Shown here one piece after another: positions 399 to 27,604 of a stretch of DNA of 64,000 nucleotides. The position numbers and the translations under genes are program-made. The notes beneath the pieces were generated by a model. The model was not told the DNA's origin. It saw nothing but the letters and a program-made list of their open reading frames with translations, and did no database searches. The stretch is from the NCBI RefSeq assembly GCF_056746865.1, contig NZ_CM163382.1; one strand, 5' to 3'. Position 1 is the first letter of the stretch, and the number at the start of each line of letters is the position of its first letter.

Positions 399-1560
399 AA
401 TAATCAAGTAATAGTTGACAATAAAATTTATCAGTTCAGTAAAATTATAAGAATATAATTAATTTCCGTTAACAGCGTATAACTCGTTTCTTTTTTCTGA
501 TAAAAAATCGAATTTGATTGATGTTTGAAGTAAATATTTCAAAGATTATCCAACCGCAATAGGCTCCAGCCGTATTGGGAGCATAAAATATTGGATAAGC
601 ACAGATCGCATCTGCGAATCTTAATCTACGCCCGTGACGTGGGGAAAATGGTATACACCAACATTATATCTGTATTAAATTCTAGATTTTCAAGTGTCTG
701 TCATTTCCTTTAAAAAAGAAAGCGTCGCCATAAACACTCTCTAAACAAAAAACCTATAAGAATAGAATTTATTATAGAACCAAGACGGTTTAGAAACACA
801 TCTATTACCAAACACTGAACATAACTCTAAACAACATTGAATAAAAATTAATGACTTTTAATATATTTCATATAGTGTATCCTCTGGAGAGCAATATATT
901 AATCGCTACAGAACGGTTATTAAAAAATATAGAACCAGTGATTGAATCAAAATGACCGATAAACAGTTCAGCAAAGTATAGCAACAGTGACATTTGTTAT
1001 AACAATGATTTTTACTACACGCAAAATATTAACATCACTAAAGTAATGAAAAAACATATTTATCTAAGCACAAAAATACAATATATAGCACATTATAAAA
1101 TAGAATTAAAACAAACCGTAACAACCATGATGCTATATTAATAGTTAAAATATTTTTAGTAAAAGATAAATTACCCCCATTAAAAATTCAAAACTGATGT
1201 TAGTTAACTCATAAGATCCTGCTAATTGATATAACTACGCCCCATGGGATAATGTTTTAATAACAGAACATTATCAGAAAACTGATCCCTCCAAATTTAA
1301 TTATTTTCTTGCTTATTTTATCAATAAAATAGAGTTCTGAAAAGTTATCTTATCTGAAAATATATTAGTGCCATATAGTAACAAAAAATATCAACCTTGC
1401 ATAATGATTTTAACTGTTCAAATAGTGCTCTACCCACATATCACGGGTGACATTTAATATATTTCCTTTGATACTCTACCAATAATAATTTATTGCTGAT
1501 TGTTTAATCACATAATCCCAAACTGCCCTGCAATAATATATTAACTCACAAAAAAAATCA

Positions 1561-3708
1561 TCAGGGTAAAAGTGAACGAAAAAGTCTCAAAGTTTGAGCA
1601 AAAGAAACTAACTTAATTCGCCAACGCTGCCACCACTTAACACCTGCCGTCGTAGCTTTTTTTTGAGTAGATAATAGATGAATTAATTGTTCAGGGCTGC
1701 ACCAAAGCCCTGACTTCCAATCTATATAACGCGGATATTTTACTAATGTAATATATGCTAATGCACTCAACGTTAATGTACGATGGCGTCTTTCTGATGG
1801 ATGCTTATCTTGTGTTAATCCCCAACCACTATAAAACGGCTGTCCCCATGTCGTAACCTTCACTCCTTGAACTAGTGCCTCAAATCCACTAAGCGAAGTC
1901 ATGGTATGTAACTCATTTATGTGTGGATATAGCGATTCCAGTCTAATATCAGATACTTGGCTATCAACACAGTGTGCTAAACAACGCGCCGAAATAGTAC
2001 CTTTTCGATTGCCAGATACCACATCCGGATGAGGTTTGAACAGAATATGTGCATTCGGTTTAGCTTCACGCACAGCCCACAACAACTGTTCATTGCTGCG
2101 GATAATCGGGCTACCACACAAAATGGATGCATCACCATCAACCTGACCAACCACTAGAATCAACTCACGTCCGTCGTTAGGGGGCTCATATTCTTGTGTA
2201 CTCCCCACATTGTATTTACTGACTCGTGATGATTGTAATTGCGCTAATAATGACTCTGCGCGTGCTTCTTCTTTCGCATCTAAAACGTACGTAGTGAGTA
2301 ACTGCTCAAGCTTACTCGGACGGCGGCTATCAAAATAGATTCCAACGGGGTCAATCGAGAGTGATGAAGGTCGACATAAATTAGACCCCAATCCGTTGGA
2401 GCGGATAAAACCATCTTCAATCCGGATCACTGATTGCAGTTCAGGATAACGGTTTCCCCACACCAACACCTGTTCATCATCTTTTAACTGTGAGGGCACA
2501 GTACGAACAAAACAAAGTTCATCTGCCAAATACGCACAAAATGTGCGTATAAAAGCACGCTTCCACAGAGAAAAACCAACGAGATAAAGACGACGCCAAG
2601 GTTTGGGCTCTACCTGCTGCTGAGCCAAAATCGCTACAACATCTTCTACCTCACAACGTTTTCCCAATATAGGATCTAAATAACGCGGATAACGGATCAA
2701 CGCCGCCGCAACTAAGCGGGGCAATGAAATAGATGAAACGCCTTCGGCTGACATTGCTTCTTCACGGCGTATACAACGTTTACTGTCATGCGTTAACCCC
2801 CACCCAGCATAAAATGGCATACCGAAGCAATATACAGGTTTGCCCAACAGCAACGCTTCAAAGCCAACCTGCGATGAAACTGTGTACACCGCATCCACCA
2901 TACGAATTATTCTATGCGGATGGCAAGGTTCACTCACCACCTCAACATCAGCCAGTCGAGGATCACGCCCCACTAAACGTGCTAACACGCCGCTTTTTTT
3001 GCTAAAGCGTGTATCTGGGTGTGTTCGCAACAATAGACGCGCATTAGGGTGATTACGGCGAGCCTCGACCACCATAGAAACAAAATCAGCTTCGCAAGCA
3101 AGAGCCCCAGAAATTGACAAGTCTCCCGCTACTTGATCCACAAGCAAAATACGCGGTCTTGGATCATCCAGTAAACGTGCTAAGTTTGAATGAGCCGTGA
3201 GGGTGAATAACTCAGGTTGTATATGTGTCGGTAAATCTAAAGAAGGCCCGTCAGTAGCACGGACAGAGCCATTAAATGTATGCTCAGTGCTATTGGTATA
3301 GCAGTTATACTTGGTGATTCCTAAACGCAAAATATCAGAGATCAGATGCTCAGCGCGCGCAAGTAAAGCCGTATCAACAGGTTCAATAATAAGCTGTTCT
3401 AATTGACTCGTCTGATGTGCATCATAATATATCCCCAGAGGGTCAGCAATAAGAGAAACCGCCTTTCCTCCTTTTGCTGGGTGCCCGATATAGCCAATAA
3501 AACCATCTTCAAGTTGCCAATAAGATATTCCTAACTCTTGAGCTTTCTGTTTAATCTGCTTAGTATTAGATTTTTTTCCCCAGCCAACTAAAACGTCATT
3601 TTTAGAAAAAGCCTCGTCTCCTTTCATATAAAGCAATGGGTGACCAAGCATAGGCTCAATATTATTTTTTCTGGCAAGAATCCCTTTCGATCCCGTATAT
3701 AAATACAT
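1561..3708 (-). CDS. kpsC: KpsC-like capsule biosynthesis protein (tandem beta-Kdo transferase domains)
   Basis: 715-aa ORF with an internally duplicated module (LEDGFIGYIG...DPLGIYYDAHQTSQLEQLI and IEDGFIRSNGLG...DPVGIYFDSRRPSKLEQLL), typical of KpsC. It lies next to kpsS. The true start codon is uncertain. Confidence 0.8.
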   Translation of the reverse strand: MYLYTGSKGILARKNNIEPMLGHPLLYMKGDEAFSKNDVLVGWGKKSNTKQIKQKAQELGISYWQLEDGFIGYIGHPAKGGKAVSLIADPLGIYYDAHQTSQLEQLIIEPVDTALLARAEHLISDILRLGITKYNCYTNSTEHTFNGSVRATDGPSLDLPTHIQPELFTLTAHSNLARLLDDPRPRILLVDQVAGDLSISGALACEADFVSMVVEARRNHPNARLLLRTHPDTRFSKKSGVLARLVGRDPRLADVEVVSEPCHPHRIIRMVDAVYTVSSQVGFEALLLGKPVYCFGMPFYAGWGLTHDSKRCIRREEAMSAEGVSSISLPRLVAAALIRYPRYLDPILGKRCEVEDVVAILAQQQVEPKPWRRLYLVGFSLWKRAFIRTFCAYLADELCFVRTVPSQLKDDEQVLVWGNRYPELQSVIRIEDGFIRSNGLGSNLCRPSSLSIDPVGIYFDSRRPSKLEQLLTTYVLDAKEEARAESLLAQLQSSRVSKYNVGSTQEYEPPNDGRELILVVGQVDGDASILCGSPIIRSNEQLLWAVREAKPNAHILFKPHPDVVSGNRKGTISARCLAHCVDSQVSDIRLESLYPHINELHTMTSLSGFEALVQGVKVTTWGQPFYSGWGLTQDKHPSERRHRTLTLSALAYITLVKYPRYIDWKSGLWCSPEQLIHLLSTQKKATTAGVKWWQRWRIKLVSFAQTLRLFRSLLP

Positions 3709-3757: not shown

Positions 3758-4309
3758 TTAGATGAACAGCTCTGCGCTCTCTAATGACTTTGCAATACTA
3801 TCTTTTGCTGAAGTGAGAATGTCCGCCTTTAACTCGGGCCACCTAATACCAATTGTAGGATCATTCCATGCAATGCCTCTATCACTGGCAGGGGCATAAT
3901 AATTAGTTGTTTTATACAAAAATTCGGCCGATTCAGTCAGTGTTACAAAACCATGGGCAAATCCTTCCGGAATCCATAACTGTCGTTTGTTTTCCCCTGA
4001 AAGATGAACGCCAACCCATTGTCCGAAGCTCGGTGAGCTTTTGCGAATATCTACCGCAACATCAAACACTTCACCGGCTACACAACGCACTAACTTGCCC
4101 TGGGCATGGGGAGGTAACTGATAGTGCAAGCCACGCAGTACCCCTTTAGAAGATTTTGAGTGATTATCCTGCACAAAGGTAACTGGATATCCTACAGCCT
4201 CTTCAAACAACTTGTGATTAAAACTCTCAAAGAAAAAACCACGCTCATCTCCAAATACTTTTGGCTCAAAAATAAGCACACCAGGAATTGCTGTCTTGAT
4301 TACATTCAT
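3758..4309 (-). CDS. rmlC: dTDP-4-dehydrorhamnose 3,5-epimerase
   Basis: 183 aa, N-terminus MNVIKTAIPGVLIFEPKVFGDERGFF is characteristic of RmlC/RfbC. Last gene of an rmlB-D-A-C run. Confidence 0.9.
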   Translation of the reverse strand: MNVIKTAIPGVLIFEPKVFGDERGFFFESFNHKLFEEAVGYPVTFVQDNHSKSSKGVLRGLHYQLPPHAQGKLVRCVAGEVFDVAVDIRKSSPSFGQWVGVHLSGENKRQLWIPEGFAHGFVTLTESAEFLYKTTNYYAPASDRGIAWNDPTIGIRWPELKADILTSAKDSIAKSLESAELFI

Positions 4310-4374
4310 CTATATGCCCACATTTAATTAAATATTTTTAGGGGAAGCATATTCCCTCCCCCTTCTCAATTACA

Positions 4375-5253
4375 TCACGCCTTATCAATCATTTTTAATA
4401 AATATTGCCCATAGGCGTTTTTTGCCAACGGAGCAGCAAGCTCACGAACCTGGTCGGCACTAATAAACTTCTGGCGATAAGCAATCTCTTCCGGACAAGC
4501 CACTTTCAATCCCTGACGCGTCTCGATGGTCTGAATAAAGTTACTCGCTTCAATTAGGCTTTCGTGGGTACCGGTATCAAGCCAGGCATAACCACGCCCC
4601 ATCATTGCCACCGATAGATTGCCTTGCTCCAGGTAAATACGGTTCACATCGGTGATTTCCAACTCACCACGCGGCGATGGCTTGAGACCCTTGGCAACGT
4701 CCACAACGCTGTTGTCGTAGAAATAGAGGCCGGTGACTGCGTAGCTACTCTTAGGCTCCAGTGGTTTTTCTTCCAGTGAAATAGCGGTACCTTGATTATC
4801 AAATTCGACCACTCCATAACGTTCCGGGTCGTGCACATGATAGGCAAATACAGTAGCACCGGTCTCTTTGGCCGCGGCTGCCTCCAACTGTTTCTGTAGG
4901 TCATGACCGTAGAAGATGTTATCCCCCAGCACCAGTGCACACGGGGCTGAACCAATGAATTCTTCACCCAGAATAAAAGCTTGTGCCAACCCGTCTGGGC
5001 TTGGCTGAACCTCATATTGTAAATTCAGTCCCCAGTGGCTGCCATCACCCAGCAATCGCTGAAAGCGAGGAGTATCTTGTGGAGTGCTAATGATCAAAAT
5101 ATCGCGAATTCCAGCCAGCATCAGGGTGCTCAGCGGGTAGTAGATCATCGGCTTGTCATAGATGGGCAACAACTGCTTGCTCACCGCCATAGTAACCGGA
5201 TAGAGACGTGTACCAGATCCACCGGCCAGAATAATACCTTTACGTTTAGTCAT
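4375..5253 (-). CDS. rmlA: glucose-1-phosphate thymidylyltransferase
   Basis: 292 aa, [21 protein letters not shown]...[16 protein letters not shown] nucleotidyltransferase signature. Confidence 0.92.
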
Positions 5254-5333
5254 GATGCTTGTTTCTTATTTTTAAATTACATAAGAATAAAGTGGCTTGA
5301 GCCGCGCCTTTCTGTTTTATCCTCACCTGTGGT

Positions 5334-6221
5334 TTACTTCCCCATGATCTCAGTCAACATCCGCTCAACACCGACTGACCAGTCCGGCAAAACCAGATCA
5401 AATGTACGCTGGAATTTTTTAGTATCAAGTCGGGAATTATGAGGGCGTTTCGCCGGGGTCGGAAAGGCGCCTGTCGGCACTGCATTAAGCTGTGTGACTG
5501 CCAGTTCAACTCCTGCGTCTCTGGCTTTGTCAAACACCAACCGGGCGTAGTCAAACCAAGTGGTAGTACCGGAGGCAGCCAAATGGTACAGCCCGGCAAC
5601 GTCGGGTTTGCTCTGTGCAACTCGGATTGCATGGGCGGTACAATCGGCCAGCAACTCAGCTCCAGTTGGAGCGCCAAACTGATCATTAATGACCGATATC
5701 TCGCGACGCTCTTTGCCAAGACGCAGCATAGTTTTGGCGAAGTTGGCACCGCGCGCAGCATAAACCCAACTGGTACGAAAGATAAGGTGACGTGAGCAGA
5801 GTGCCGCACCGTGTTCCCCTGCCAGCTTGGTTTCGCCATAGACGTTGAGCGGGGAAATCACATCGGTTTCCACCCAAGGACGTTCACCACTTCCATCGAA
5901 AACATAGTCGGTGGAATAATGTACTAGCCACGCACCTAATGCTTCAGCTTCTTTGGCAATAACCGCCACACTAGTTGCATTGAGTAACTCGGCAAATTCC
6001 CGCTCACTCTCCGCTTTGTCGACTGCAGTATGGGCCGCTGCGTTAACAATCACATCCGGCTTGACGAGACGTACCGTTTCAGCCACCCCTGCAGAATTGC
6101 TAAAATCACCGCAATAGTCGGTGGAGTCAAAATCAACGGCAGTGATGTGCCCCAGAGGCGCCAATGCACGCTGCAGCTCCCATCCTACCTGACCATTTTT
6201 GCCAAACAACAGAATATGCAT
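5334..6221 (-). CDS. rmlD: dTDP-4-dehydrorhamnose reductase
   Basis: 295 aa, [24 protein letters not shown] RmlD-type N-terminus. Start overlaps the rmlB stop by 1 nt. Confidence 0.9.
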   Translation of the reverse strand: MHILLFGKNGQVGWELQRALAPLGHITAVDFDSTDYCGDFSNSAGVAETVRLVKPDVIVNAAAHTAVDKAESEREFAELLNATSVAVIAKEAEALGAWLVHYSTDYVFDGSGERPWVETDVISPLNVYGETKLAGEHGAALCSRHLIFRTSWVYAARGANFAKTMLRLGKERREISVINDQFGAPTGAELLADCTAHAIRVAQSKPDVAGLYHLAASGTTTWFDYARLVFDKARDAGVELAVTQLNAVPTGAFPTPAKRPHNSRLDTKKFQRTFDLVLPDWSVGVERMLTEIMGK

Positions 6222-7306
6222 CAGGTACGCTCCCTATAGTTTTGTTCAATCCAGGATTGGTAGGCACCACTCTTGACGTTGTTAATCCATTGTTGATTAT
6301 CCAGATACCACTGCACGGTCTTGCGAATACCAGACTCAAAAGTCTCCTCTGGCTGCCAATCCAACGCAGCGCTCATCTTGCAAGCATCAATCGCATATCG
6401 GCGATCGTGTCCGGGGCGATCCGCCACATAAGTAATTTGATCGCGATAAGAGCCAGCTTTCGGTACCATCTCGTCAAGCAGATCACAAATAGTATGTACT
6501 ACATCCAGGTTCTGCTTCTCGTTGTGACCGCCTATGTTATAAGTCTCCCCGACCAAGCCAGTGGTCACTACCTTGTAGAGTGCTCGTGCATGATCTTCCA
6601 CATACAACCAGTCACGAATTTGGTCACCTTTACCATAAACCGGCAGCGGCTTGCCATCCAGCGCATTGAGGATCACTAGCGGGATCAGCTTCTCGGGAAA
6701 GTGGTAAGGGCCATAGTTGTTGGAGCAGTTAGTGACAATGGTTGGCAGGCCGTACGTACGGTACCAAGCACGCACCAGATGATCGCTGGAAGCCTTGGAG
6801 GCAGAATAGGGACTGCTAGGAGCGTAGGAGGTAGTTTCGGTAAAGAGCGGCAATGCCTCACCGGAGGCTACTTCATCCGGATGGGGCAGATCGCCATATA
6901 CTTCATCGGTAGAAATATGGTGGAAGCGAAAGGCCGCCTTGCTCAACTCGCCCAGACTGCTCCAATAGGCGCGAGCCGCTTCCAGCAATGTATAGGTGCC
7001 TACGATATTGGTTTCGATAAAGTCGGCTGGCCCTGTGATAGAACGATCAACATGGCTTTCAGCAGCCAGATGCATCACGGCATCTGGCTGGTGCAGAGCA
7101 AACACCCGATCCAACTCAGCACGATTACAGATATCAACTTGTTCAAACGAATAACGCTCACTTGACGATACACTGGCCAAAGATTCCAAATTGCCAGCAT
7201 AGGTGAGTTTATCCAGATTGATAACGGAGTCTCCAGTATCACTAATGATATGACGCACCACGGCAGAGCCGATAAAACCAGCACCGCCAGTAACGAGAAT
7301 CTTCAT
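6221..7306 (-). CDS. rmlB: dTDP-glucose 4,6-dehydratase
   Basis: 361 aa, [21 protein letters not shown]ossmann motif plus extended-SDR body. First gene of the rml run. Confidence 0.92.
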
Positions 7307-8030
7307 ATATTTCGCTCTCTTATTTTACAATTAATAGCTATTAAAAATAAACTTGTTGACTCCGATATATTAGAAATATCGGGATACCGAACTAAATATT
7401 TTTATATGCTTTTGCCAAGCAGACTCTATATCCACCCTGTATCACTATGCTTTCTGGCATACAATATCCCATCATTGACACAATGATAAACATATAAATA
7501 AAGAAAATTTTAAATCATATAACCAAATTACTTTCACTTTATTATCAATAAGTATTTTGATAAGAATACCTATACCACAGGGAGCCCCCTGAAACATAAT
7601 ATTAGCGAAGAATGATAACTGATAGTTACCATCTTAGAGATAAAAACTTATTTGTGTGGCGGGCATGACATGCCAGAGAATAAAATAGACTCAAAAAAAA
7701 TCACTAAGGGAGTTATTTGCAGCAAGAGAATTTCTTAGTCACTTGATTCAAAACAATCAAATTAAAAAGCGTTTTGATTATTAGCCTTATTTTATATATT
7801 GTGTCGTTACAGATAAAGTAAAAAACACATAATGGCATTTTCGGTTGACATATGTATTAACATATATTGCTTTATCATATAACCATATTTCAATTCAACT
7901 TACACTCTCAAGTTAATTGAAGCAGGCAATGCCTAATATATTTTTGCATCATAACCTATGATTAATATTAAAACACCAATCAGTTCGATTTTTAAACATT
8001 CAATAGCACCAATTAAATAAAAATATCTTT

Positions 8031-9062
8031 TTACTCGACACCTACAATTTTACAAGCATATTTTTTAGCATTGAACGCCAACTCGCTACGTTTATGATCT
8101 GCACTAACAAGTAATGAAAGAGCTTTTATCCATATATGTGGGTCATTCTCCAGCAAGATTCCATTTACATTTTGTTCAATGAAGTCACTATATGGTACAC
8201 AATTACTATATAAACCTACAGCCCCCATTCTGACAAAATCATAAAATTTTACGGGGCCGCGAGCCGAATTAAAGTCAGAGTCAAGTAATGGTGCTAACCC
8301 GATATCCAGATGATGAGTCTTGGTATACGCAAGATAATTTTGCCAACTCATCGGATGCAGTACTGAAACTCTTGGTAGGTCACGATAATATTTATAAATA
8401 TCATGCTCGCCAAAAATTTCAAAGCTGGCACGGGGACATTCTCCCAATACCCCCTCTACGATTTGTCTCAACCAATATTTTTCTTCCCGATGAGAACTTG
8501 AGCCATGATAAGCGATTTTTACTGATCGATGTGTTTCAATGAGTGCCAGTGACGGTTTAGCAGAAACAATCTCCGGGTTAAGATGTGCATATTTATTAGC
8601 CAAATAGGCAGTTGAAACCCAAATGTTATCACAATATTGCGTAATCCATCGATGCTGAGCCGCCGACCTCCTTATTATCTTGGTACGATACTCTTTTGGT
8701 AACGTAGATAGTGCAGTCGGGTCAAACAGGTCGTCATCCATAAAATAAACAATTCGAGAAAACCTGTCGTTATATCTTTCTATGTGCTGTTGCCATTTTG
8801 GGGAGATGAATCTAATGACGACAAGGGCAGATCCTCTAGGAATAAATATATCAGTGGATGCTAATGTGTCGATAAAATGACATTCTGCATCAGGAAACCG
8901 ACTTATAATAGCCGATTCAAAATAGGCTAATGTAGGTGATTTTCCCTCATGTAATATAAACAATCGTTCAAAGTTAATCTCAGAGCTTTGCTGACTTCTA
9001 TAACTCTGTTTATTTAATTTACGATAAGGCTTAAATAGTTTCCTGCGAATTAATTCATCCAT
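8031..9062 (-). CDS. hypothetical capsule region-2 protein, possible glycosyltransferase
   Basis: 343-aa ORF inside the serotype region, overlapping the upstream gene by 13 nt. No motif I can name with confidence. Confidence 0.4.
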   Translation of the reverse strand: MDELIRRKLFKPYRKLNKQSYRSQQSSEINFERLFILHEGKSPTLAYFESAIISRFPDAECHFIDTLASTDIFIPRGSALVVIRFISPKWQQHIERYNDRFSRIVYFMDDDLFDPTALSTLPKEYRTKIIRRSAAQHRWITQYCDNIWVSTAYLANKYAHLNPEIVSAKPSLALIETHRSVKIAYHGSSSHREEKYWLRQIVEGVLGECPRASFEIFGEHDIYKYYRDLPRVSVLHPMSWQNYLAYTKTHHLDIGLAPLLDSDFNSARGPVKFYDFVRMGAVGLYSNCVPYSDFIEQNVNGILLENDPHIWIKALSLLVSADHKRSELAFNAKKYACKIVGVE

Positions 9063-11071
9063 GGCAATACTATATTAGGAGCTCTACTTAAAGAGAAATC
9101 AGGACGTTCATAACTCAAATTTTGGTTGTAGGCTGGATCGTGTTTAAGTGCACATGCCCATCGTTTTTTCATATAGCGCAACTCAGATTTCGCTCGTATC
9201 TGCTGTTGTTTTGATACATCTTTACCACGGGAAATAGACTCATGATGATACAATTCAGCGAAGGGAGTCCAGATTACTCTCCAGCCAGCATCTCGAACTC
9301 TGAGACAATAATCTACGTCATTAAAAGCTATCGGCAAATTCGTTTCATCAAGTCCTCCGAGCGCCAGATATAACTCTTTATGAGTCAATAAACAAGCTGC
9401 AGTCACAGCTGACAGCTCTTGGGCACTAACAGCCCTACGCTGATATCCAGGATCGTTAGCTGACAAACCATTATGAAAATGATCTGCACAACCGCCAGGG
9501 CCGACAGCATCGCCTGCATGCTGAATCAAGCCATTTCCGTAATACAGCTTTGCTCCTACCACACCCACGCCGGGGCGTAATAAATGAGAAACCATTTCAT
9601 CCAGCCAGTCAATACTGATTACCTGAGTATCATTATTCAGCAAACATATCATATCTCCATGTGCGTTTCTCACTGCCAGATTGTTGATGGCTGAATAGTT
9701 AAACGGTTGATCATAAGAAATCACCCTAACGCCATAAACCTGTTCGATATGAGCAAGATAAGCAAGCGTCTCCTCCTCATCGCTCTGATTATCCATCACT
9801 ATGACTTCCATATTGGCATATTGCGTCTTTTGTATCAGGCTTTCGATACAAGGGCGTAAATGAGCAATACCATTTCTAGTAGGGATAATCACTGAAACCA
9901 ATGGCAATTGCGCTGGCAACGGCCAGCGCCAACGACATACACCATGAGGTGCTGCCTCAATGCTCACTCCTGATGGCAGTAAATCTTCTTTATCTTTCAG
10001 CGACTCAAAATCATCCGAAATCAACGCTCTTGCAGGCAAATGCATCATCAATGATGGAATATGGACTATCTGTTTCGGTTCACACATCTTTGCCAACTGT
10101 AGCCACCACTGATGACATGCCGCCGAATCAAAGGGAACACGGCCAGCACCATGTTCACGCCACAAACCACACCAACTAATATAGTTTTGGCTCTGTAGCA
10201 GCGTTTCATTCCAATCAGGTTTAAAGTTGGGAGAGTGACGTTCGCCTCTCTCGTCAAGCAGATCGTGATCACCGTATATCCATAAACAATCAGGATTCTG
10301 GCGTAACTGGTGGGCAACCCAAAATAAGGCGCCGGGCGAAACCACTGCCCCTACAGGCAACACCCACTGCCATTCGCCGCCTGACTGACTGGAGATTTCT
10401 GGATATGCACTATGCTCCTGCAGACTTATATTGCTTGCCGGATAACAGAGTGCCTGAATACTCTCCAGGGTCTTGTTGCGGCTCTGTTCATCCCCAACGC
10501 CAACAAGATGCAAACAGAAACGTGGTAATGTGCCCCAGCGAGCCAGCTGGCGCTTAATCAGCTTGTATTCGGCGGGTTCAAGGGTGTCGAAGTCTGCTAG
10601 CCACTCATCATAGCTATTGAGTGGCTTATCATCGCGAACTCTGCTGACAAGTTGGTAAGCCTGCTGCAAGTCCGTGAGCCACAAATGCCATGAAAGGCCT
10701 AACCTTTTGCGTCTGGACTTCGTTAAGCGTCGGTAAAAAGGCAAAACCCGGCGCAATCGACGCCAGAGACTCTCGGCGCGTGATACACAACAAAGCTGAG
10801 CAATCTCAACATTACACTCAGCGCCCTTAGTACTTGCCAGCAAAGACAAATGACTAGCTCCCGTGGGTAGATAAACCAGCTCCAGCAACGTGCCTCGACG
10901 AGTGACCGGCAACATCTGTTCATGCCATATTCCTTGTCCGCATTGCCAGCGCAGAAGAGTTTCACCTCGAGTTTGAGTCGTCGACACGCGCCCCCGAATC
11001 AGAAGCCAACCAGCATGAAGAGAAAACGAGTCTGGCAATGTCAGAGGCTGCCAATCGCGATAGCTACACAT
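9050..11071 (-). CDS. two-domain GT2-family glycosyltransferase; N-terminal GT domain looks degenerate
   Basis: 673 aa. C-terminal half has VSVIIPTRNG...VMDNQSDEEE...NYSAINN...LLNNDTQV GT2 motifs. Paralogous along its length to the 805-aa protein at 16457..18874 (for example YGDHDLLDERGERHSPNFKPDWN vs YSDEDKINARGERFDPHFKSDWN). Confidence 0.65.
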   Translation of the reverse strand: MCSYRDWQPLTLPDSFSLHAGWLLIRGRVSTTQTRGETLLRWQCGQGIWHEQMLPVTRRGTLLELVYLPTGASHLSLLASTKGAECNVEIAQLCCVSRAESLWRRLRRVLPFYRRLTKSRRKRLGLSWHLWLTDLQQAYQLVSRVRDDKPLNSYDEWLADFDTLEPAEYKLIKRQLARWGTLPRFCLHLVGVGDEQSRNKTLESIQALCYPASNISLQEHSAYPEISSQSGGEWQWVLPVGAVVSPGALFWVAHQLRQNPDCLWIYGDHDLLDERGERHSPNFKPDWNETLLQSQNYISWCGLWREHGAGRVPFDSAACHQWWLQLAKMCEPKQIVHIPSLMMHLPARALISDDFESLKDKEDLLPSGVSIEAAPHGVCRWRWPLPAQLPLVSVIIPTRNGIAHLRPCIESLIQKTQYANMEVIVMDNQSDEEETLAYLAHIEQVYGVRVISYDQPFNYSAINNLAVRNAHGDMICLLNNDTQVISIDWLDEMVSHLLRPGVGVVGAKLYYGNGLIQHAGDAVGPGGCADHFHNGLSANDPGYQRRAVSAQELSAVTAACLLTHKELYLALGGLDETNLPIAFNDVDYCLRVRDAGWRVIWTPFAELYHHESISRGKDVSKQQQIRAKSELRYMKKRWACALKHDPAYNQNLSYERPDFSLSRAPNIVLPWMN

Positions 11072-11174: not shown

Positions 11175-12143
11175 TCAAACCATCCATTTCTTCATTTTTT
11201 TTTTGAACCAAGAACCAGTAGGAATAGGTTCAACTGCTGATAACTCAGTCAACTTCACACTTAATCGTTCCATTTCAGCTTTTACTTGTCCTGAGAATGC
11301 GGCAGCGAGAAGGCACTCTTCATCATTACGATCATGTGCCTTGAAATAATCTTTATGCTTCACTCGATTAGCAGTAGCAGCACTACCACGCAGATGCTTG
11401 CCCAACAAGAATTCCTCAAGTGATTTAACTGCATAGTGATTTACCCTGACACCGCTCCAAATCACTTCAGCACTAACTCCTTTACCATGCCTCGGGTGCA
11501 GAATCAAATCACGACCTAACACATCAATATATCGACCATAACGCAAATCAGCATAATGCGGATTATGAAAGCGGTTAACTCGTTCTGGTTTGACCACACT
11601 TTTGAAGTTATGATGAACGTTAAAGGGTTGCGGGGCACGATAGGTAAAACGTTCAATAACCAACCCCTCTTCAGCAAACAGTTCACCACTAGAACCAAAA
11701 TTTGCCCAATTCAATGCAATAGCGCTGACACTCTCATCCTGAAACTTTTCAGAAAAAAAATCTGACAATTTGGTATCCGATTCAAGTGGCAATAAAAATT
11801 CATCAGCATCTATAAATGCAAGCAGGTCTATGTCTCTGGGACAGCTACGTAAAATATGTTCATATGCAGGTAATTGTGGCTTTTGATTCACCAAAATCGG
11901 TTGATCGAACATCTTCACAATACCTAAGCGAGCGAGGGACAATAGCAACTCTCGACTACCATCACGACTACCATTATCTGCAATAATAAACCCATCAACA
12001 CCTAATACTCGATGGTAAGCAATCCATTCAAGTAAACTTGAATACTCATCCTTGATAATAGCGGCTATATAGAGTTTCAAATTATCATCCAGCAAAAATG
12101 TATCAATGCCGATACTATCGGCATTGATACTCAATTTTATCAT
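11175..12143 (-). CDS. glycosyltransferase (GT2/GT92-like fold)
   Basis: 322 aa with LLEWIAYHRVLGVDGFIIADNGSRDGS. Paralog of the N-terminal domain of the 409-aa protein at 15216..16445. Confidence 0.55.
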   Translation of the reverse strand: MIKLSINADSIGIDTFLLDDNLKLYIAAIIKDEYSSLLEWIAYHRVLGVDGFIIADNGSRDGSRELLLSLARLGIVKMFDQPILVNQKPQLPAYEHILRSCPRDIDLLAFIDADEFLLPLESDTKLSDFFSEKFQDESVSAIALNWANFGSSGELFAEEGLVIERFTYRAPQPFNVHHNFKSVVKPERVNRFHNPHYADLRYGRYIDVLGRDLILHPRHGKGVSAEVIWSGVRVNHYAVKSLEEFLLGKHLRGSAATANRVKHKDYFKAHDRNDEECLLAAAFSGQVKAEMERLSVKLTELSAVEPIPTGSWFKKKMKKWMV

Positions 12144-24491: not shown

Positions 24492-26237
24492 TCATTTAAT
24501 AGCAACGTTAGCAGCTACAGCGATTTGATAAATAATTTGTGTGATATCTTTAAATGATTGCATGGTTTTGCTATCAACCTGAGGTAGAACCAATATCTGA
24601 TCCCCCGGTTGTACTTTACCTTGCCCTTTAAATTCTACAAGACCATTTGCATGTACAATAGCAATTCGCTTGTCGTTAGCTCGCTCAGTAAAACCTCCGG
24701 CCCATGCAACATAATCATCCAAATTAGCATCGGCATTATATACTACTGCTTGTGGCATCAACACTTCACCACCCACTTGAATAAGATCAGTCTTATTTGG
24801 AATAACTATTTGATCGCCTTGTTCTAATTGGATATTGGCAATAACACCTTTATCTGCAACTACTACTTTACCAAGCGGTTGAACTTTACGAGCCTTTTCA
24901 ACAAACTGCATCACTAACTCTGCTTCTTTAGCACGTATATTCGCCTCACCATCAGATCGCGCGGGTGTGGTAAATACACTACGTTCCAAGCGGTTTAGAG
25001 ATTCATCCAGCATCTCTTTTTGTCTTGCAGCCACACTCTTTCGTATCAGATAAATTGATTGATAATCCGCAAGCTCTGGGTCAATAGGGATATAGTTCAA
25101 TAAATCATGCAATTTAGTTTGCTTACGAACCGTGAAATATGACGGTCCCATATAACTGCCTGATACTTGTATATCATATACTTGTGCATGCATGTCATCA
25201 TTAAAAAGTACTTTGTCACCGTCTTTAAGTTGAAGACGTGTAAAATCTTTATACGGCAAGTAGACGGAAAACGGGCCGCTTTCCCTGTCGCCAATCACAC
25301 CGACATGACTGACTTTTGCGAGAGGAAGTGCATAATTCACCAATTCAGAGCCTAATGCATTGCGCTGGGTAAGCTCAAATCGGAATGGGTTTCGAACCTT
25401 TCCCGCAACATTGATCATTGGACCTTGTTGCTCAACTAAAATCACATCTTGATCTTTTAATGCCAGCTTCGGGAGTTTCCCATACCGTATGAAATCATAA
25501 AGATCAATTTGCTGTATTACTCTATTTTGTCGTAACACCTTAATTTTTCGATAACTTCCACGGTCAGAATCTATTCCACCGGCACGTTTTAAAAAATACA
25601 ATATACTATCAGAAGATTGTCCTGCATACTGCCCAGGACGAATTACAGGCCCCGTAACGAATACACTTACAGGGGTTGCAGTCAAAAGATTTACGTAAGT
25701 ATTTACATTATTGGTAAATACATCACCGATCTTACTTGCCACCAACTGATTAACTTGGCTTGCAGGAACATTTTTTACATTTATTGGACCTACATCAGGT
25801 ATGAAAATATTTCCTTGATTATCTACCGTAACCACATTAGAGAAATTGACCGCTCCCCAAATCCAGATATTTAACTTATCCCCAGGAGCAATCAAATAAT
25901 TATCGCTTAAGCCGTCACTCCTTTCTGTTTCATAGCCTCCGGCAAATAAATTAGCACCATACGGAGGAGGTAAGCCTGCTTCAGATTGCGGCAGTAATTT
26001 TCGTACATCTGACTCTCCTGGAAGCAACATCCCATTACGATTCTGTTGTGTGAAGCTTCCTGTTGTGGAGGTTGTATTAGGCTGTCCAGTGATGTCTGCT
26101 AGCATTTTCCGAGACTCTCCTGTCGAGGCAGCAAGATCATAATCTAAATGTGAACCATTAGATTGATTTTGCTCTATTGCGGCGAATGCTGATGCAGAAA
26201 TAAGAAAGAGAAGAGTGCTAAGTTGCGAAATTTTCAT
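24492..26237 (-). CDS. kpsD: KpsD-like periplasmic/outer-membrane capsule export protein
   Basis: 581 aa with signal peptide (MKISQLSTLLFLISASAFA). Central region resembles KpsD (GDKLNIWIWGA...GNIFIPDVGPINV...VFVTGPVIRPGQY...RGSY). Confidence 0.75.
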   Translation of the reverse strand: MKISQLSTLLFLISASAFAAIEQNQSNGSHLDYDLAASTGESRKMLADITGQPNTTSTTGSFTQQNRNGMLLPGESDVRKLLPQSEAGLPPPYGANLFAGGYETERSDGLSDNYLIAPGDKLNIWIWGAVNFSNVVTVDNQGNIFIPDVGPINVKNVPASQVNQLVASKIGDVFTNNVNTYVNLLTATPVSVFVTGPVIRPGQYAGQSSDSILYFLKRAGGIDSDRGSYRKIKVLRQNRVIQQIDLYDFIRYGKLPKLALKDQDVILVEQQGPMINVAGKVRNPFRFELTQRNALGSELVNYALPLAKVSHVGVIGDRESGPFSVYLPYKDFTRLQLKDGDKVLFNDDMHAQVYDIQVSGSYMGPSYFTVRKQTKLHDLLNYIPIDPELADYQSIYLIRKSVAARQKEMLDESLNRLERSVFTTPARSDGEANIRAKEAELVMQFVEKARKVQPLGKVVVADKGVIANIQLEQGDQIVIPNKTDLIQVGGEVLMPQAVVYNADANLDDYVAWAGGFTERANDKRIAIVHANGLVEFKGQGKVQPGDQILVLPQVDSKTMQSFKDITQIIYQIAVAANVAIK

Positions 26238-27564: not shown

Positions 27565-27604
27565 GAATGCTACCGCCCCTGGCTTTACAGCTACCAATAC
27601 ACTG
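27565..27604 (-). promoter_or_regulatory. JUMPstart element containing an ops (GGCGGTAG) site, RfaH-dependent antitermination signal for the kps transcript
   Basis: Minus-strand sequence cagtgtattggtagctgtaaagccaggggcggtagcattc closely matches the 39-bp JUMPstart consensus (CAGTG..TGGTAGCTGT.AAGCCAGGGGCGGTAGC). Correct orientation, ~1.3 kb upstream of kpsD. Confidence 0.75.

What the first reader, a model, noticed from the sequence alone, without database searches (positions are those of the whole stretch)
7307..8030. 724-bp AT-rich gap separating the rml module from the glycosyltransferase module
The rmlBDAC block has noticeably higher GC than the neighbouring GT genes and is set off by a long AT-rich non-coding tract. 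This suggests a mosaic origin (an rml cassette recombined into the capsule locus) and an internal promoter for rml.
Basis: seen in the sequence. Interest (0 to 1): 0.3.

Follow-up and report, generated by a model that had tools for sequence, protein, structure and literature searches.

The report
Decayed gene remnant upstream of rmlB
The 724-bp AT-rich gap in this E. coli group 3 capsule locus is most likely the gene-less, decayed leftover of an accessory esterase-like gene cassette that still sits at this spot in related loci, so it is an ordinary evolutionary scar and not the edge of an imported rhamnose cassette.

Summary
The gap is real and exact. rmlB starts at 7306 and the 343-aa gene ends at 8031, both on the minus strand. 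The 724 bp between them are 28.5% GC and hold no credible ORF, Rfam match, ops site or terminator.

The window carries an E. coli subgroup 3A kps capsule locus. The gap does not separate independently moving modules. A block of about 13 kb (three glycosyltransferase genes, the gap, rmlBDAC, kpsC and kpsS) is 98-99.6% identical across at least six capsule types. The same gene order occurs in subgroup 3B plasmids, with only 66-145 bp at this site. It also occurs in Aeromonas media, which has two intact genes there: a 33% GC alpha/beta-hydrolase (abh) and a methyltransferase.

Seventeen E. coli genomes carry abh at this site. Some of them also have IS5 and nested deletions running toward rmlB.

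Window 7621-7770 is a degraded abh fragment (0 of 2000 shuffles reach its score). Window 7307-7613 is an rmlB leader shared with the abh-bearing allele.

No promoter-like site scores above composition-matched shuffles. Published work on strain M12, whose gap has the same length, shows that capsule production needs a distant RfaH-dependent promoter.

The finding is ordinary and of low interest.

The parts
8031..9062 (-). Upstream flanking gene, 343 aa. It is the third gene of the conserved 3-GT block; I equate it with wckE of Hong et al. and it is listed as k96-11 in the strain M12 tables. It is intact.
   Evidence: ORF. Homologues are 341-343 aa in 3B plasmids and A. media, at 70-74% aa identity. 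Transposon insertions are strongly enriched in the capsule-negative pool in M12.
8001..8030 (-). About 30 bp immediately downstream of the 343-aa gene's stop codon. The sequence is still alignable with Aeromonas media.
   Evidence: The blastn alignment of window 8130-8001 to A. media 6783-6914 (70% identity) runs 32 bp past the stop codon.
7771..8000 (.). Orphan AT-rich segment with no detectable relative. It is specific to the gene-less allele.
   Evidence: Outside the 3A locus there is no match in E. coli genomes, plasmids or phages. There is no significant similarity to the abh allele or to abh homologues. tblastx and Pfam found no signal.
7621..7770 (-). Degraded fragment of an alpha/beta-hydrolase (abh) gene. 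It corresponds to codons of about 256-308 of the intact 398-aa gene found at this site in 17 other E. coli genomes.
   Evidence: The segment is 63% identical over 162 alignment columns to abh nt 765-925. It lies on the same strand and in collinear order. The local score is 24, against 12.4 +/- 1.6 (maximum 21) in dinucleotide shuffles, so 0 of 2000 reach it; the reverse-complement control scores 12. My reading of the alignment shows a TAC to TAA in-frame stop and several frame shifts. The best alignment to an 83% aa homologue falls at the same codons but is weak (26 of 300 shuffles). tblastn does not detect the fragment.
7693..7700 (.). Homopolymer, A8 on the + strand and T8 on the coding strand. 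Its length varies between strains.
   Evidence: The tract is A8 in the window, A9 in L002, L005 and L006, and A25 in L007.
7372..7613 (-). rmlB-proximal leader. It is shared only with the abh-bearing E. coli allele, where it forms the abh-rfbB spacer. Identity falls with distance from rmlB.
   Evidence: Identity per 100-bp window is 91% (7300-7399), 83% (7400-7499) and about 51% (7500-7599), against 98-100% inside rmlB. The local alignment extends to about 7613. Every IS5-associated deletion leaves at least 242 bp upstream of rmlB.
7307..7371 (-). 65 bp immediately upstream of the rmlB ATG. It includes an apparent Shine-Dalgarno sequence (AAGAGAG, my reading). It is alignable with the sequence upstream of rmlB in Aeromonas media.
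   Evidence: blastn aligns window 7371-7209 to A. media 9099-9264 at 70% identity. The sequence is shown.
6221..7306 (-). rmlB (dTDP-glucose 4,6-dehydratase), the first gene of rmlBDAC.
   Evidence: ORF, annotation. It is 90-91% aa identical to RmlB of 3B loci and A. media, and 82% to E. coli O-antigen RfbB.

Best explanation
The gap is a non-coding scar left by the decay of an AT-rich accessory cassette that occupies the site between the last glycosyltransferase gene and rmlB in related group 3-type capsule loci. In coding (minus-strand) order it contains five parts. First come about 30 bp of 3' flank of the 343-aa gene. Next is about 230 bp of orphan AT-rich DNA. Then follows a 150-bp fragment of an alpha/beta-hydrolase gene that carries a stop codon and frame shifts. 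After that is an rmlB leader of about 300 bp, shared with the allele that still carries the intact hydrolase gene. The last 65 bp of that leader include the ribosome-binding site and are conserved as far as Aeromonas. The AT-richness is inherited from the cassette, since intact abh is 33% GC. By inference, not demonstration, the gap has no function of its own. It would be transcribed as an untranslated spacer of the single long kps operon, which starts at the promoter and JUMPstart/ops element upstream of kpsD. RfaH-modified RNA polymerase would carry transcription across it into rmlBDAC-kpsCS.
For: Site occupancy forms a series. 3B plasmids have 66-145 bp and no gene. Aeromonas media has intact abh (399 aa, 33% GC) plus a 260-aa methyltransferase in 2284 bp. 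E. coli allele B has abh only in 1829 bp. Allele B variants carry IS5 fixed at one junction with five nested deletion endpoints that leave 1756 to 242 bp upstream of rmlB. Allele A, the window, has 724 bp and no gene. The abh fragment at 7621-7770 is statistically supported (0 of 2000 shuffles) and lies 7 bp from the shared leader, in the correct order and on the correct strand. Identity between the two alleles falls toward the gap from both sides: 99% to 91% to 83% to none from rmlB, and 98% to 87% from the 343-aa gene. Among allele A copies the gap has more variable alignment columns (5.9%) than rmlB (1.5%) or the 343-aa gene (0.9%), and it carries a length-variable homopolymer. There is no ORF over 41 aa inside, no Pfam hit, no Rfam hit, no ops site and no terminator-like site. 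Promoter-like sites do not exceed shuffles. A JUMPstart/ops element lies at about 27566-27604 (-), upstream of kpsD. In M12, whose gap is also 724 bp, capsule production needs that distal promoter, RfaH and OxyR.
Against: The abh remnant is detectable only with permissive nucleotide scoring. With +2/-3 scoring, 36 of 500 shuffles reach the score. tblastn finds nothing, and the A. media abh gene gives no signal. About 230 bp (7771-8000) remain unexplained. The direction of change, loss versus gain, is inferred for allele A from this one remnant. Nothing here shows that the gap is transcribed through or that it lacks a promoter. The retention of at least 242 bp upstream of rmlB in all deletion variants, and the 86% conservation of the first 196 bp between alleles, could instead reflect a functional leader or promoter.
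Confidence: 0.65

Rival explanations
1. The gap, specifically the rmlB-proximal leader of about 240-300 bp, carries an internal promoter or regulatory region. This would drive or tune rmlBDAC-kpsCS independently of the distal kpsD promoter. It is compatible with the scar origin.
For: The leader is the only part of the gap shared by both alleles (86% identity over 196 bp). All five IS5-associated deletions stop at least 242 bp before rmlB. IS5-bearing loci persist in several isolates from different countries. AT-rich DNA readily yields sigma-70 sites. From my own recollection, not checked here, internal promoters were reported in region 2 of the K5 group 2 cluster.
Against: No promoter-like site on the coding strand exceeds composition-matched shuffles. 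The best scores 11.5 bits against a shuffle maximum of 12.3 +/- 1.4, and 27 sites reach 6 bits against 32 +/- 6 in shuffles. The consensus scan finds 8 sites against 6.8 +/- 2.7 expected. The candidate hexamers in the leader are weak and only partly conserved in allele B (my reading). 3B loci manage with 66-145 bp at this site. In M12 a delta-rfaH mutant and reporter constructs lacking the distal promoter lose capsule or reporter activity respectively. Any internal promoter is therefore not sufficient. Five deletion endpoints are too few to show selection.
Confidence: 0.2
2. The gap marks the junction where a higher-GC rmlBDAC cassette was recombined into the capsule locus, for example from an O-antigen cluster.
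For: GC3 steps from 0.31 in the 343-aa gene to 0.52 in rmlB, and from 0.51 in rmlA to 0.36 in rmlC. The rml set differs from E. coli's own O-antigen rml. rml genes are known recombination substrates (PMC10433991).
Against: GT-rml adjacency and order are conserved in 3B plasmids and A. media. RmlB of 3A groups with RmlB from those same loci. There is no homology to the galF-rfbB region or to O-antigen rml beyond 72-75% in coding sequence. The same GC pattern is present in A. media. In E. coli the gap lies inside a block that is 98-99.6% identical across capsule types; the variable/conserved boundary lies further upstream, between roughly 11 and 13 kb depending on the locus.
Confidence: 0.08
3. 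The AT-rich tract is kept as an H-NS binding or nucleation site that silences or conditions expression of the downstream half of the locus.
For: The tract is 28.5% GC over 724 bp. AT-rich, horizontally acquired DNA is the established H-NS target, and PMC10433991 invokes H-NS for low-GC capsule loci. A second tract of 28% GC lies between kpsC and kpsS.
Against: Only one weak match to the high-affinity H-NS motif falls in the gap, and there is no enrichment there. The gap has more variable sites than its flanks. 3B loci lack it. Binding, if it occurs, would be a by-product of composition and would not explain why the sequence exists.
Confidence: 0.12
4. The gap encodes an unannotated small protein or a structured small RNA.
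For: Two 41-aa ATG ORFs lie on the coding strand, at 7472-7597 and 7713-7838. The RNA-sense fold has z = -2.4, from only 20 shuffles. Two small GC-rich hairpins lie at 7578-7591 and 7662-7674 (my reading).
Against: There is no Rfam match at E <= 1 and no Pfam match for any stop-free segment. By position, the 1-bp insertion in L006 falls inside the 7472-7597 ORF, and allele B has a 1-nt deletion in the overlapping region. There are no homologues outside these loci.
Confidence: 0.03

Closest known systems
Conserved '3-GT block + rmlBDAC' of E. coli group 3 (subgroup 3A) kps loci (Hong, Cunneen & Reeves 2019; Hong et al. 2023, PMC10433991)
   Same: The window has the same gene order and near-identical sequence. 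The block is shared by K96/K54-type and several unnamed 3A loci, including CP023142 (TBA_2). The paper already notes 'additional differences ... just before the rml genes' that are possibly transposase-related.
   Different: The paper's text as searched has no occurrence of 'intergenic'. The spacer itself, the abh-bearing versus gene-less dimorphism, the abh remnant and the Aeromonas media counterpart were not found in the papers I read.
Gene-decay remnants and recombination scars in polysaccharide loci, for example the group 2-type kpsC fragment next to kpsS in this same locus (window about 399-601)
   Same: Both are long AT-rich non-coding tracts between co-oriented genes. Both contain a recognisable fragment of a gene that is intact elsewhere (for kpsC; for abh).
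   Different: The kpsC fragment is about 81% identical to its source and easy to see. The abh fragment is only 63% identical and needs permissive alignment.
IS5-adjacent nested deletions
   Same: In allele B one IS5 end is fixed, and deletions of different lengths extend from the other end into abh.
   Different: The window's allele has no IS. Its deletions are older and their mechanism is unknown.
RfaH/ops-dependent long polysaccharide operons: group 2 kps region 3 to region 2 read-through, and the K96 group 3 locus of strain M12 (PMC13410964)
   Same: A JUMPstart/ops element lies upstream of kpsD in the window. All genes are co-oriented. M12 has a 724-bp gap and requires RfaH.
   Different: Read-through across this particular gap has not been measured. 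There is no ops site inside the gap.

Membership tests
E. coli subgroup 3A kps capsule locus (context of the gap) | Order kpsD-M-T-E / region 2 / kpsC-kpsS on one strand, with rmlBDAC directly before kpsC and three glycosyltransferase genes before rml | tested here: met
   ORFs and annotation. Pfam finds GT2/GT92 domains in two of the three genes. The order matches the description in PMC10433991.
E. coli subgroup 3A kps capsule locus (context of the gap) | JUMPstart/ops element upstream of kpsD | tested here: met
   GGCGGTAGCATT lies at 27566-27577 (-), inside a JUMPstart-like sequence about 1.33 kb upstream of kpsD.
Pseudogene remnant of the abh (alpha/beta-hydrolase) accessory gene | Nucleotide similarity to an intact homologue above composition-matched chance | tested here: met
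   The score is 24 against shuffles of 12.4 +/- 1.6 (maximum 21), so 0 of 2000 reach it; the reverse-complement control scores 12.
Pseudogene remnant of the abh (alpha/beta-hydrolase) accessory gene | Same strand, same site and collinear order with the flanking homologous sequence | tested here: met
   The remnant (abh nt 765-925) ends 7 bp before the leader that follows abh in allele B. Both are on the coding strand.
Pseudogene remnant of the abh (alpha/beta-hydrolase) accessory gene | Disabling lesions (stops, frame shifts) | tested here: met
   My reading of the alignment shows TAC to TAA and several indels that are not multiples of three.
Pseudogene remnant of the abh (alpha/beta-hydrolase) accessory gene | Protein-level similarity, and similarity to more distant family members | tested here: inconclusive
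   tblastn with 25 family members gives no hit better than E = 0.03, and none at the expected place. The 83% homologue aligns at the same codons, but 26 of 300 shuffles reach that score. A. media abh gives no signal. The scoring is also sensitive: 36 of 500 shuffles reach the score with +2/-3.
Sigma-70 internal promoter | -35/-10 match stronger or more frequent than composition-matched sequence | tested here: not met
   
Sigma-70 internal promoter | Mapped transcription start or reporter activity | not testable with these tools
   The M12 TnSeq tables, as held and searched, gave per-gene (CDS) rows and no occurrence of 'intergenic'.
RfaH ops / JUMPstart element inside the gap | GGCGGTAGnnTG with at most 1 mismatch | tested here: not met
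   None lies in 7307-8030.
Known RNA family (riboswitch, leader, sRNA) | Rfam covariance-model match | tested here: not met
   There were 0 matches at E <= 1 in 7000-8300 on both strands.
IS / MITE remnant | Multiple copies in genomes, terminal inverted repeats, similarity to known elements | tested here: not met
   There is one place per genome, always at this locus. There are no plasmid or phage hits. The repeats found are short and not above chance.
O-antigen-derived rml cassette junction | Close identity to E. coli O-antigen rml, and homology to the galF-rfbB upstream region | tested here: not met
   Identity is 72-75% and ends at the start codon. In the RmlB tree the O-antigen RfbB sequences fall in a separate clade.

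The most novel reading that the evidence does not exclude
The rmlB-proximal leader of about 240-300 bp (7307-7613) might be a functional internal promoter or regulatory leader. It survives in both alleles and in every IS5 deletion variant. It would let dTDP-rhamnose synthesis and the KpsC/KpsS initiation enzymes be expressed separately from the distal OxyR/RfaH-controlled promoter, giving the group 3A locus a second control point.
Probability: 0.2. Interest if true: 0.35.

Novelty: new member of a known kind. Interest (0 to 1): 0.18.

Why it matters
The result has practical value for locus typing. Capsule-locus typing tools and annotators can treat the site between the third glycosyltransferase gene and rmlB as a polymorphic accessory-gene site with several states: empty, abh, abh plus methyltransferase, IS5-disrupted, or a decayed remnant. 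It should not be treated as a module boundary.

The result also links the conserved E. coli 3A block to a collinear chromosomal locus in Aeromonas media. It flags abh, an esterase-like protein with a relative next to phage tail genes, as a candidate capsule-modifying enzyme that most 3A loci have lost.

It does not change the current picture of how group 3 capsules are made or regulated.

Tried and rejected
- **Rfam scan of 7000-8300:** no match.
- **ops/JUMPstart in the gap:** none found.
- **Terminator scan:** no terminator-like site.
- **Promoter scans, consensus and PWM:** neither exceeds shuffles.
- **H-NS motif scan:** uninformative.
- **Six-frame segments against Pfam:** no hit.
- **tblastx of the gap against all fetched loci:** only the already known DNA homology.
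- **tblastn of abh and its 24 homologues against the gap:** nothing convincing.
- **Searches of plasmid and phage collections with the gap:** nothing apart from one chromosome filed among the plasmids.
- **Methyltransferase remnant:** I looked for a fragment of the A. media methyltransferase in the leader and in the allele B spacer. Neither is significant.
- **Internal direct repeat (7490-7541 versus 7848-7902):** it looked suggestive, but 165 of 1000 shuffles reach its score, so I rejected it.
- **Similarity between the two AT-rich gaps of the locus:** none.
- **K5 region 2 promoters:** a literature search for these as a precedent found only a review with no relevant detail.
- **RNA fold z-score:** -2.4 from 20 shuffles, which I judged too weak to pursue.

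Full report
**Observation**

The window's first 27.6 kb or so carry a capsule locus on the minus strand.
- Reading in the direction of transcription, a JUMPstart/ops element lies at about 27566-27604, with GGCGGTAGCATT as the ops match.
- It is followed by kpsD (24492-26237), kpsM, kpsT, kpsE and a serotype-specific region.
- Next come three glycosyltransferase-type genes: 11175-12143, 9050-11071 and 8031-9062.
- Then comes the gap at 7307-8030, followed by rmlB (6221-7306), rmlD, rmlA, rmlC and kpsC (1561-3708).
- A second long gap lies at 399-1560, before kpsS, which is cut by the window start.

The finding's coordinates are exactly the intergenic interval. It is 724 bp long and 28.5% GC. 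Every other spacer in the locus runs from -44 to +140 bp, apart from the 1163-bp kpsC-kpsS gap. The gap is therefore a real outlier.

The composition claim is only partly right. rmlB, rmlD and rmlA are 50-53% GC, against 38-40% for two of the glycosyltransferase genes. But rmlC is 43%, kpsC is 44% and the 673-aa glycosyltransferase gene is 47%.

**Context and what is already known**

The gap occurs in 101 of 5426 complete E. coli genomes, once each and always at this locus. The locus is the subgroup 3A kps cluster.

Hong et al. (PMC10433991) describe a 'strikingly conserved' rmlBDAC block preceded by a conserved 3-GT block in group 3 clusters. They also mention unexplained differences 'just before the rml genes'.

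I confirmed that window 1 to about 13000 is 98-99.6% identical in at least six loci whose upstream halves of region 2 differ. The gap therefore lies inside a block that travels as a unit. It is not at the boundary between variable and conserved DNA.

**Is rml a separately imported cassette?**

- Against E. coli's own O-antigen rfbB the capsule rmlB is only 72-75% identical, and 69-70% against rffG. Those alignments stop at the start codon.
- In protein identity the four Rml proteins are closest to those of subgroup 3B plasmid loci (90/88/92/83.5%). Next come Aeromonas caviae (88/91/92/78%) and Aeromonas media (91/89/91/85%). E. coli O-antigen sets are more distant, at 82/74-75/86/65-76%. An NJ tree groups 3A, 3B and A. 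caviae apart from the O-antigen clade.
- The whole arrangement GT-GT-GT-rmlBDAC-kpsC-kpsS is collinear in Enterobacter, Leclercia and E. coli 3B plasmids and in the A. media chromosome.
- The relative GC pattern is the same in A. media: a low-GC 343-aa gene, high-GC rmlB and rmlD, and low-GC rmlC.

The rml set is thus a distinct lineage that has long been part of this type of locus. The gap is not its insertion junction.

**What occupies the site in relatives**

- 3B loci have only 66-145 bp between the third GT gene and rfbB.
- A. media has two intact genes there: a 399-aa alpha/beta-hydrolase-fold protein (abh, 33% GC in a locus of about 46-61% GC) and a 260-aa methyltransferase. By my arithmetic on the coordinates, the interval is 2284 bp.
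- Seventeen E. coli genomes (allele B) share only the 196 bp next to rmlB with the window, at 86% identity. They carry a 398-aa abh gene in an interval of 1829 bp, as in strain LR-27. Pfam matches to abh are weak and fall in esterase/hydrolase families.
- Within allele B, IS5 sits at a fixed junction near the 343-aa gene. Deletions of five different lengths run from it toward rmlB. They leave 1756, 1504, 1085, 489 or 242 bp upstream of rmlB.

The site is therefore a polymorphic accessory-gene site in active decay.

**Anatomy of the window's gap**

Between the two E. coli alleles, identity is 98-100% throughout rmlB. It then falls to 91%, 83% and background within 300 bp of the start codon. On the other side it falls from about 98% to 87% toward the end of the 343-aa gene. 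This is the pattern expected around an old non-homologous insert whose flanks are being homogenised by recombination.

A permissive local alignment shows the shared leader extending to about 7613. Only 7 bp further on, window 7770-7621 aligns to abh nt 765-925 (codons of about 256-308). The alignment is on the same strand, at 63% identity over 162 columns.

This score of 24 was never reached in 2000 dinucleotide-preserving shuffles, which gave 12.4 +/- 1.6 with a maximum of 21. The reverse-complement control scored 12.

My reading of the alignment shows a TAC to TAA stop and several frame-breaking indels. Runs of residual codon matches remain (AF-FD..SS, NN.L..F, NK..FLS.R).

There are caveats.
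- With stricter scoring only the first 25 nt align, and 36 of 500 shuffles reach that score.
- tblastn sees nothing.
- An 83% homologue aligns best at the same codons but weakly, with 26 of 300 shuffles reaching the score. The A. media gene gives no signal.

I rate the remnant as probable (about 75%), not certain.

The last 65 bp before rmlB and the first 30 bp or so after the 343-aa gene are still alignable with A. media. The remaining 230 bp or so (7771-8000) match nothing. No methyltransferase remnant was detectable.

**Tests for function**

- Inside the gap there is no ORF longer than 41 aa, and no stop-free segment matches Pfam.
- There is no Rfam match, no ops element and no terminator-like site.
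- Promoter-like sites are no more frequent or stronger than in shuffles. The consensus scan finds 8 against 6.8 +/- 2.7. The best coding-strand PWM site scores 11.5 bits, against a shuffle maximum of 12.3 +/- 1.4.
- Among allele A copies, 5.9% of gap alignment columns vary, against 1.5% for rmlB and 0.9% for the 343-aa gene. An A8 tract at 7693-7700 varies between A8, A9 and A25. This fits weak or no constraint.
- In RNA sense the gap is G-rich relative to C, with a C/G ratio of 0.72. I take this to mean it is not an obvious Rho-loading region.

**Published experiments on strain M12**

M12 has a gap of the same length, 724 bp between the gene coordinates in its TnSeq table. The laboratory 'capsule spontaneous mutant' genomes, which I take to be M12 derivatives, match the window's gap at 100%.

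In M12, capsule production requires RfaH and OxyR. Reporter activity requires a promoter about 1.6 kb upstream of kpsD, which is followed by an ops element (PMC13410964).

In the TnSeq table, insertions in the 343-aa gene, rmlD, rmlC, kpsC and kpsS are strongly enriched in the capsule-negative pool. Insertions in rmlB are depleted from it, with RPKM falling from 289 and 364 to 0.7 and 32. My inference is that insertions just downstream of the gap are not polar. This dataset therefore cannot tell whether a promoter in the gap contributes. The table rows I retrieved are per gene (CDS) rather than per intergenic region.

**Conclusion**

The best-supported reading is that the gap is a gene-less, decayed remnant of an AT-rich accessory cassette (abh, with or without a methyltransferase) at an old insertion site. 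It would be retained as an untranslated spacer of the RfaH-dependent kps operon.

The origin is shown by comparison. The lack of function and the read-through are inferred.

The main rival, which is compatible with this origin, is that the conserved leader of 240-300 bp holds an internal promoter. Nothing here supports it beyond its conservation and its survival in five deletion variants.

The finding is ordinary. It refines a known locus and does not reveal a new mechanism.

Noticed in passing
window 399-1560: A second long AT-rich gap (1163 bp, 28% GC) lies between kpsC and kpsS. Window 1-601 matches group 2 kps loci such as UTI89 at about 80-82% identity, and both kpsS and kpsC are annotated under the match. 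About 399-601 therefore looks like a fragment of a group 2-type kpsC, left when a group 2A-type kpsS entered the 3A locus. [quoted passage not shown] 3B loci have only about 88 bp here. The remaining 960 bp or so are unexplained.
   Followed up: partly
window 27566-27604 (-): A JUMPstart-like sequence with an ops match (GGCGGTAGCATT) lies about 1.33 kb upstream of kpsD. It fits the distal promoter and ops arrangement reported for strain M12. The paper gives 1,473 bp, so the exact distance differs.
   Followed up: partly
L098 (Aeromonas media OU015320.1, 2226344-2241543): The A. media chromosome carries a collinear group 3-type block: ugd, a small ORF, GT92, GT2, a 343-aa gene, abh, a methyltransferase, rmlBDAC, kpsC and kpsS. 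It is 67-91% aa identical to the E. coli 3A proteins. For the first and third GT genes it is closer to 3A than the 3B plasmids are. A search of the Hong et al. 2023 paper found no mention of Aeromonas.
   Followed up: partly
L003, L009, L095, L096, L097 versus L008 (allele B of the same site): IS5 is inserted at one fixed junction next to the 343-aa gene. Five different deletion endpoints eat into abh toward rmlB in isolates from several countries.
   Followed up: yes
L103 (Logan SRR24234331 contig), gene 1074-2249: A 49%-identical member of the small abh family (25 proteins found) sits close to phage tail genes (FNIII-A_GpJ and Phage-tail_3 Pfam hits). This hints that the family acts on surface polysaccharide.
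   Followed up: no
window 7693-7700: The homopolymer length differs between strains: A8, A9 and A25 in FDAARGOS_1291. I saw no convincing promoter hexamers flanking it.
   Followed up: partly
window 7578-7591 and 7662-7674: Two short GC-rich inverted repeats (CAGGG-AGCC-CCCTG and GGCATG-A-CATGCC) stand out in the AT-rich tract. By my position count, both natural variants seen at the first one fall in its loop. They are not followed by a T-run, and their significance is unknown.
   Followed up: no
window 3758-7306; M12 TnSeq table: In strain M12, transposon insertions in rmlB are depleted from the capsule-negative pool, and rmlA insertions are only weakly enriched. rmlD and rmlC insertions are strongly enriched. 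The authors attribute rmlB dispensability to the wec-locus copy of the same enzyme. This also implies that insertions in rmlB are not polar on rmlD-kpsS.
   Followed up: partly
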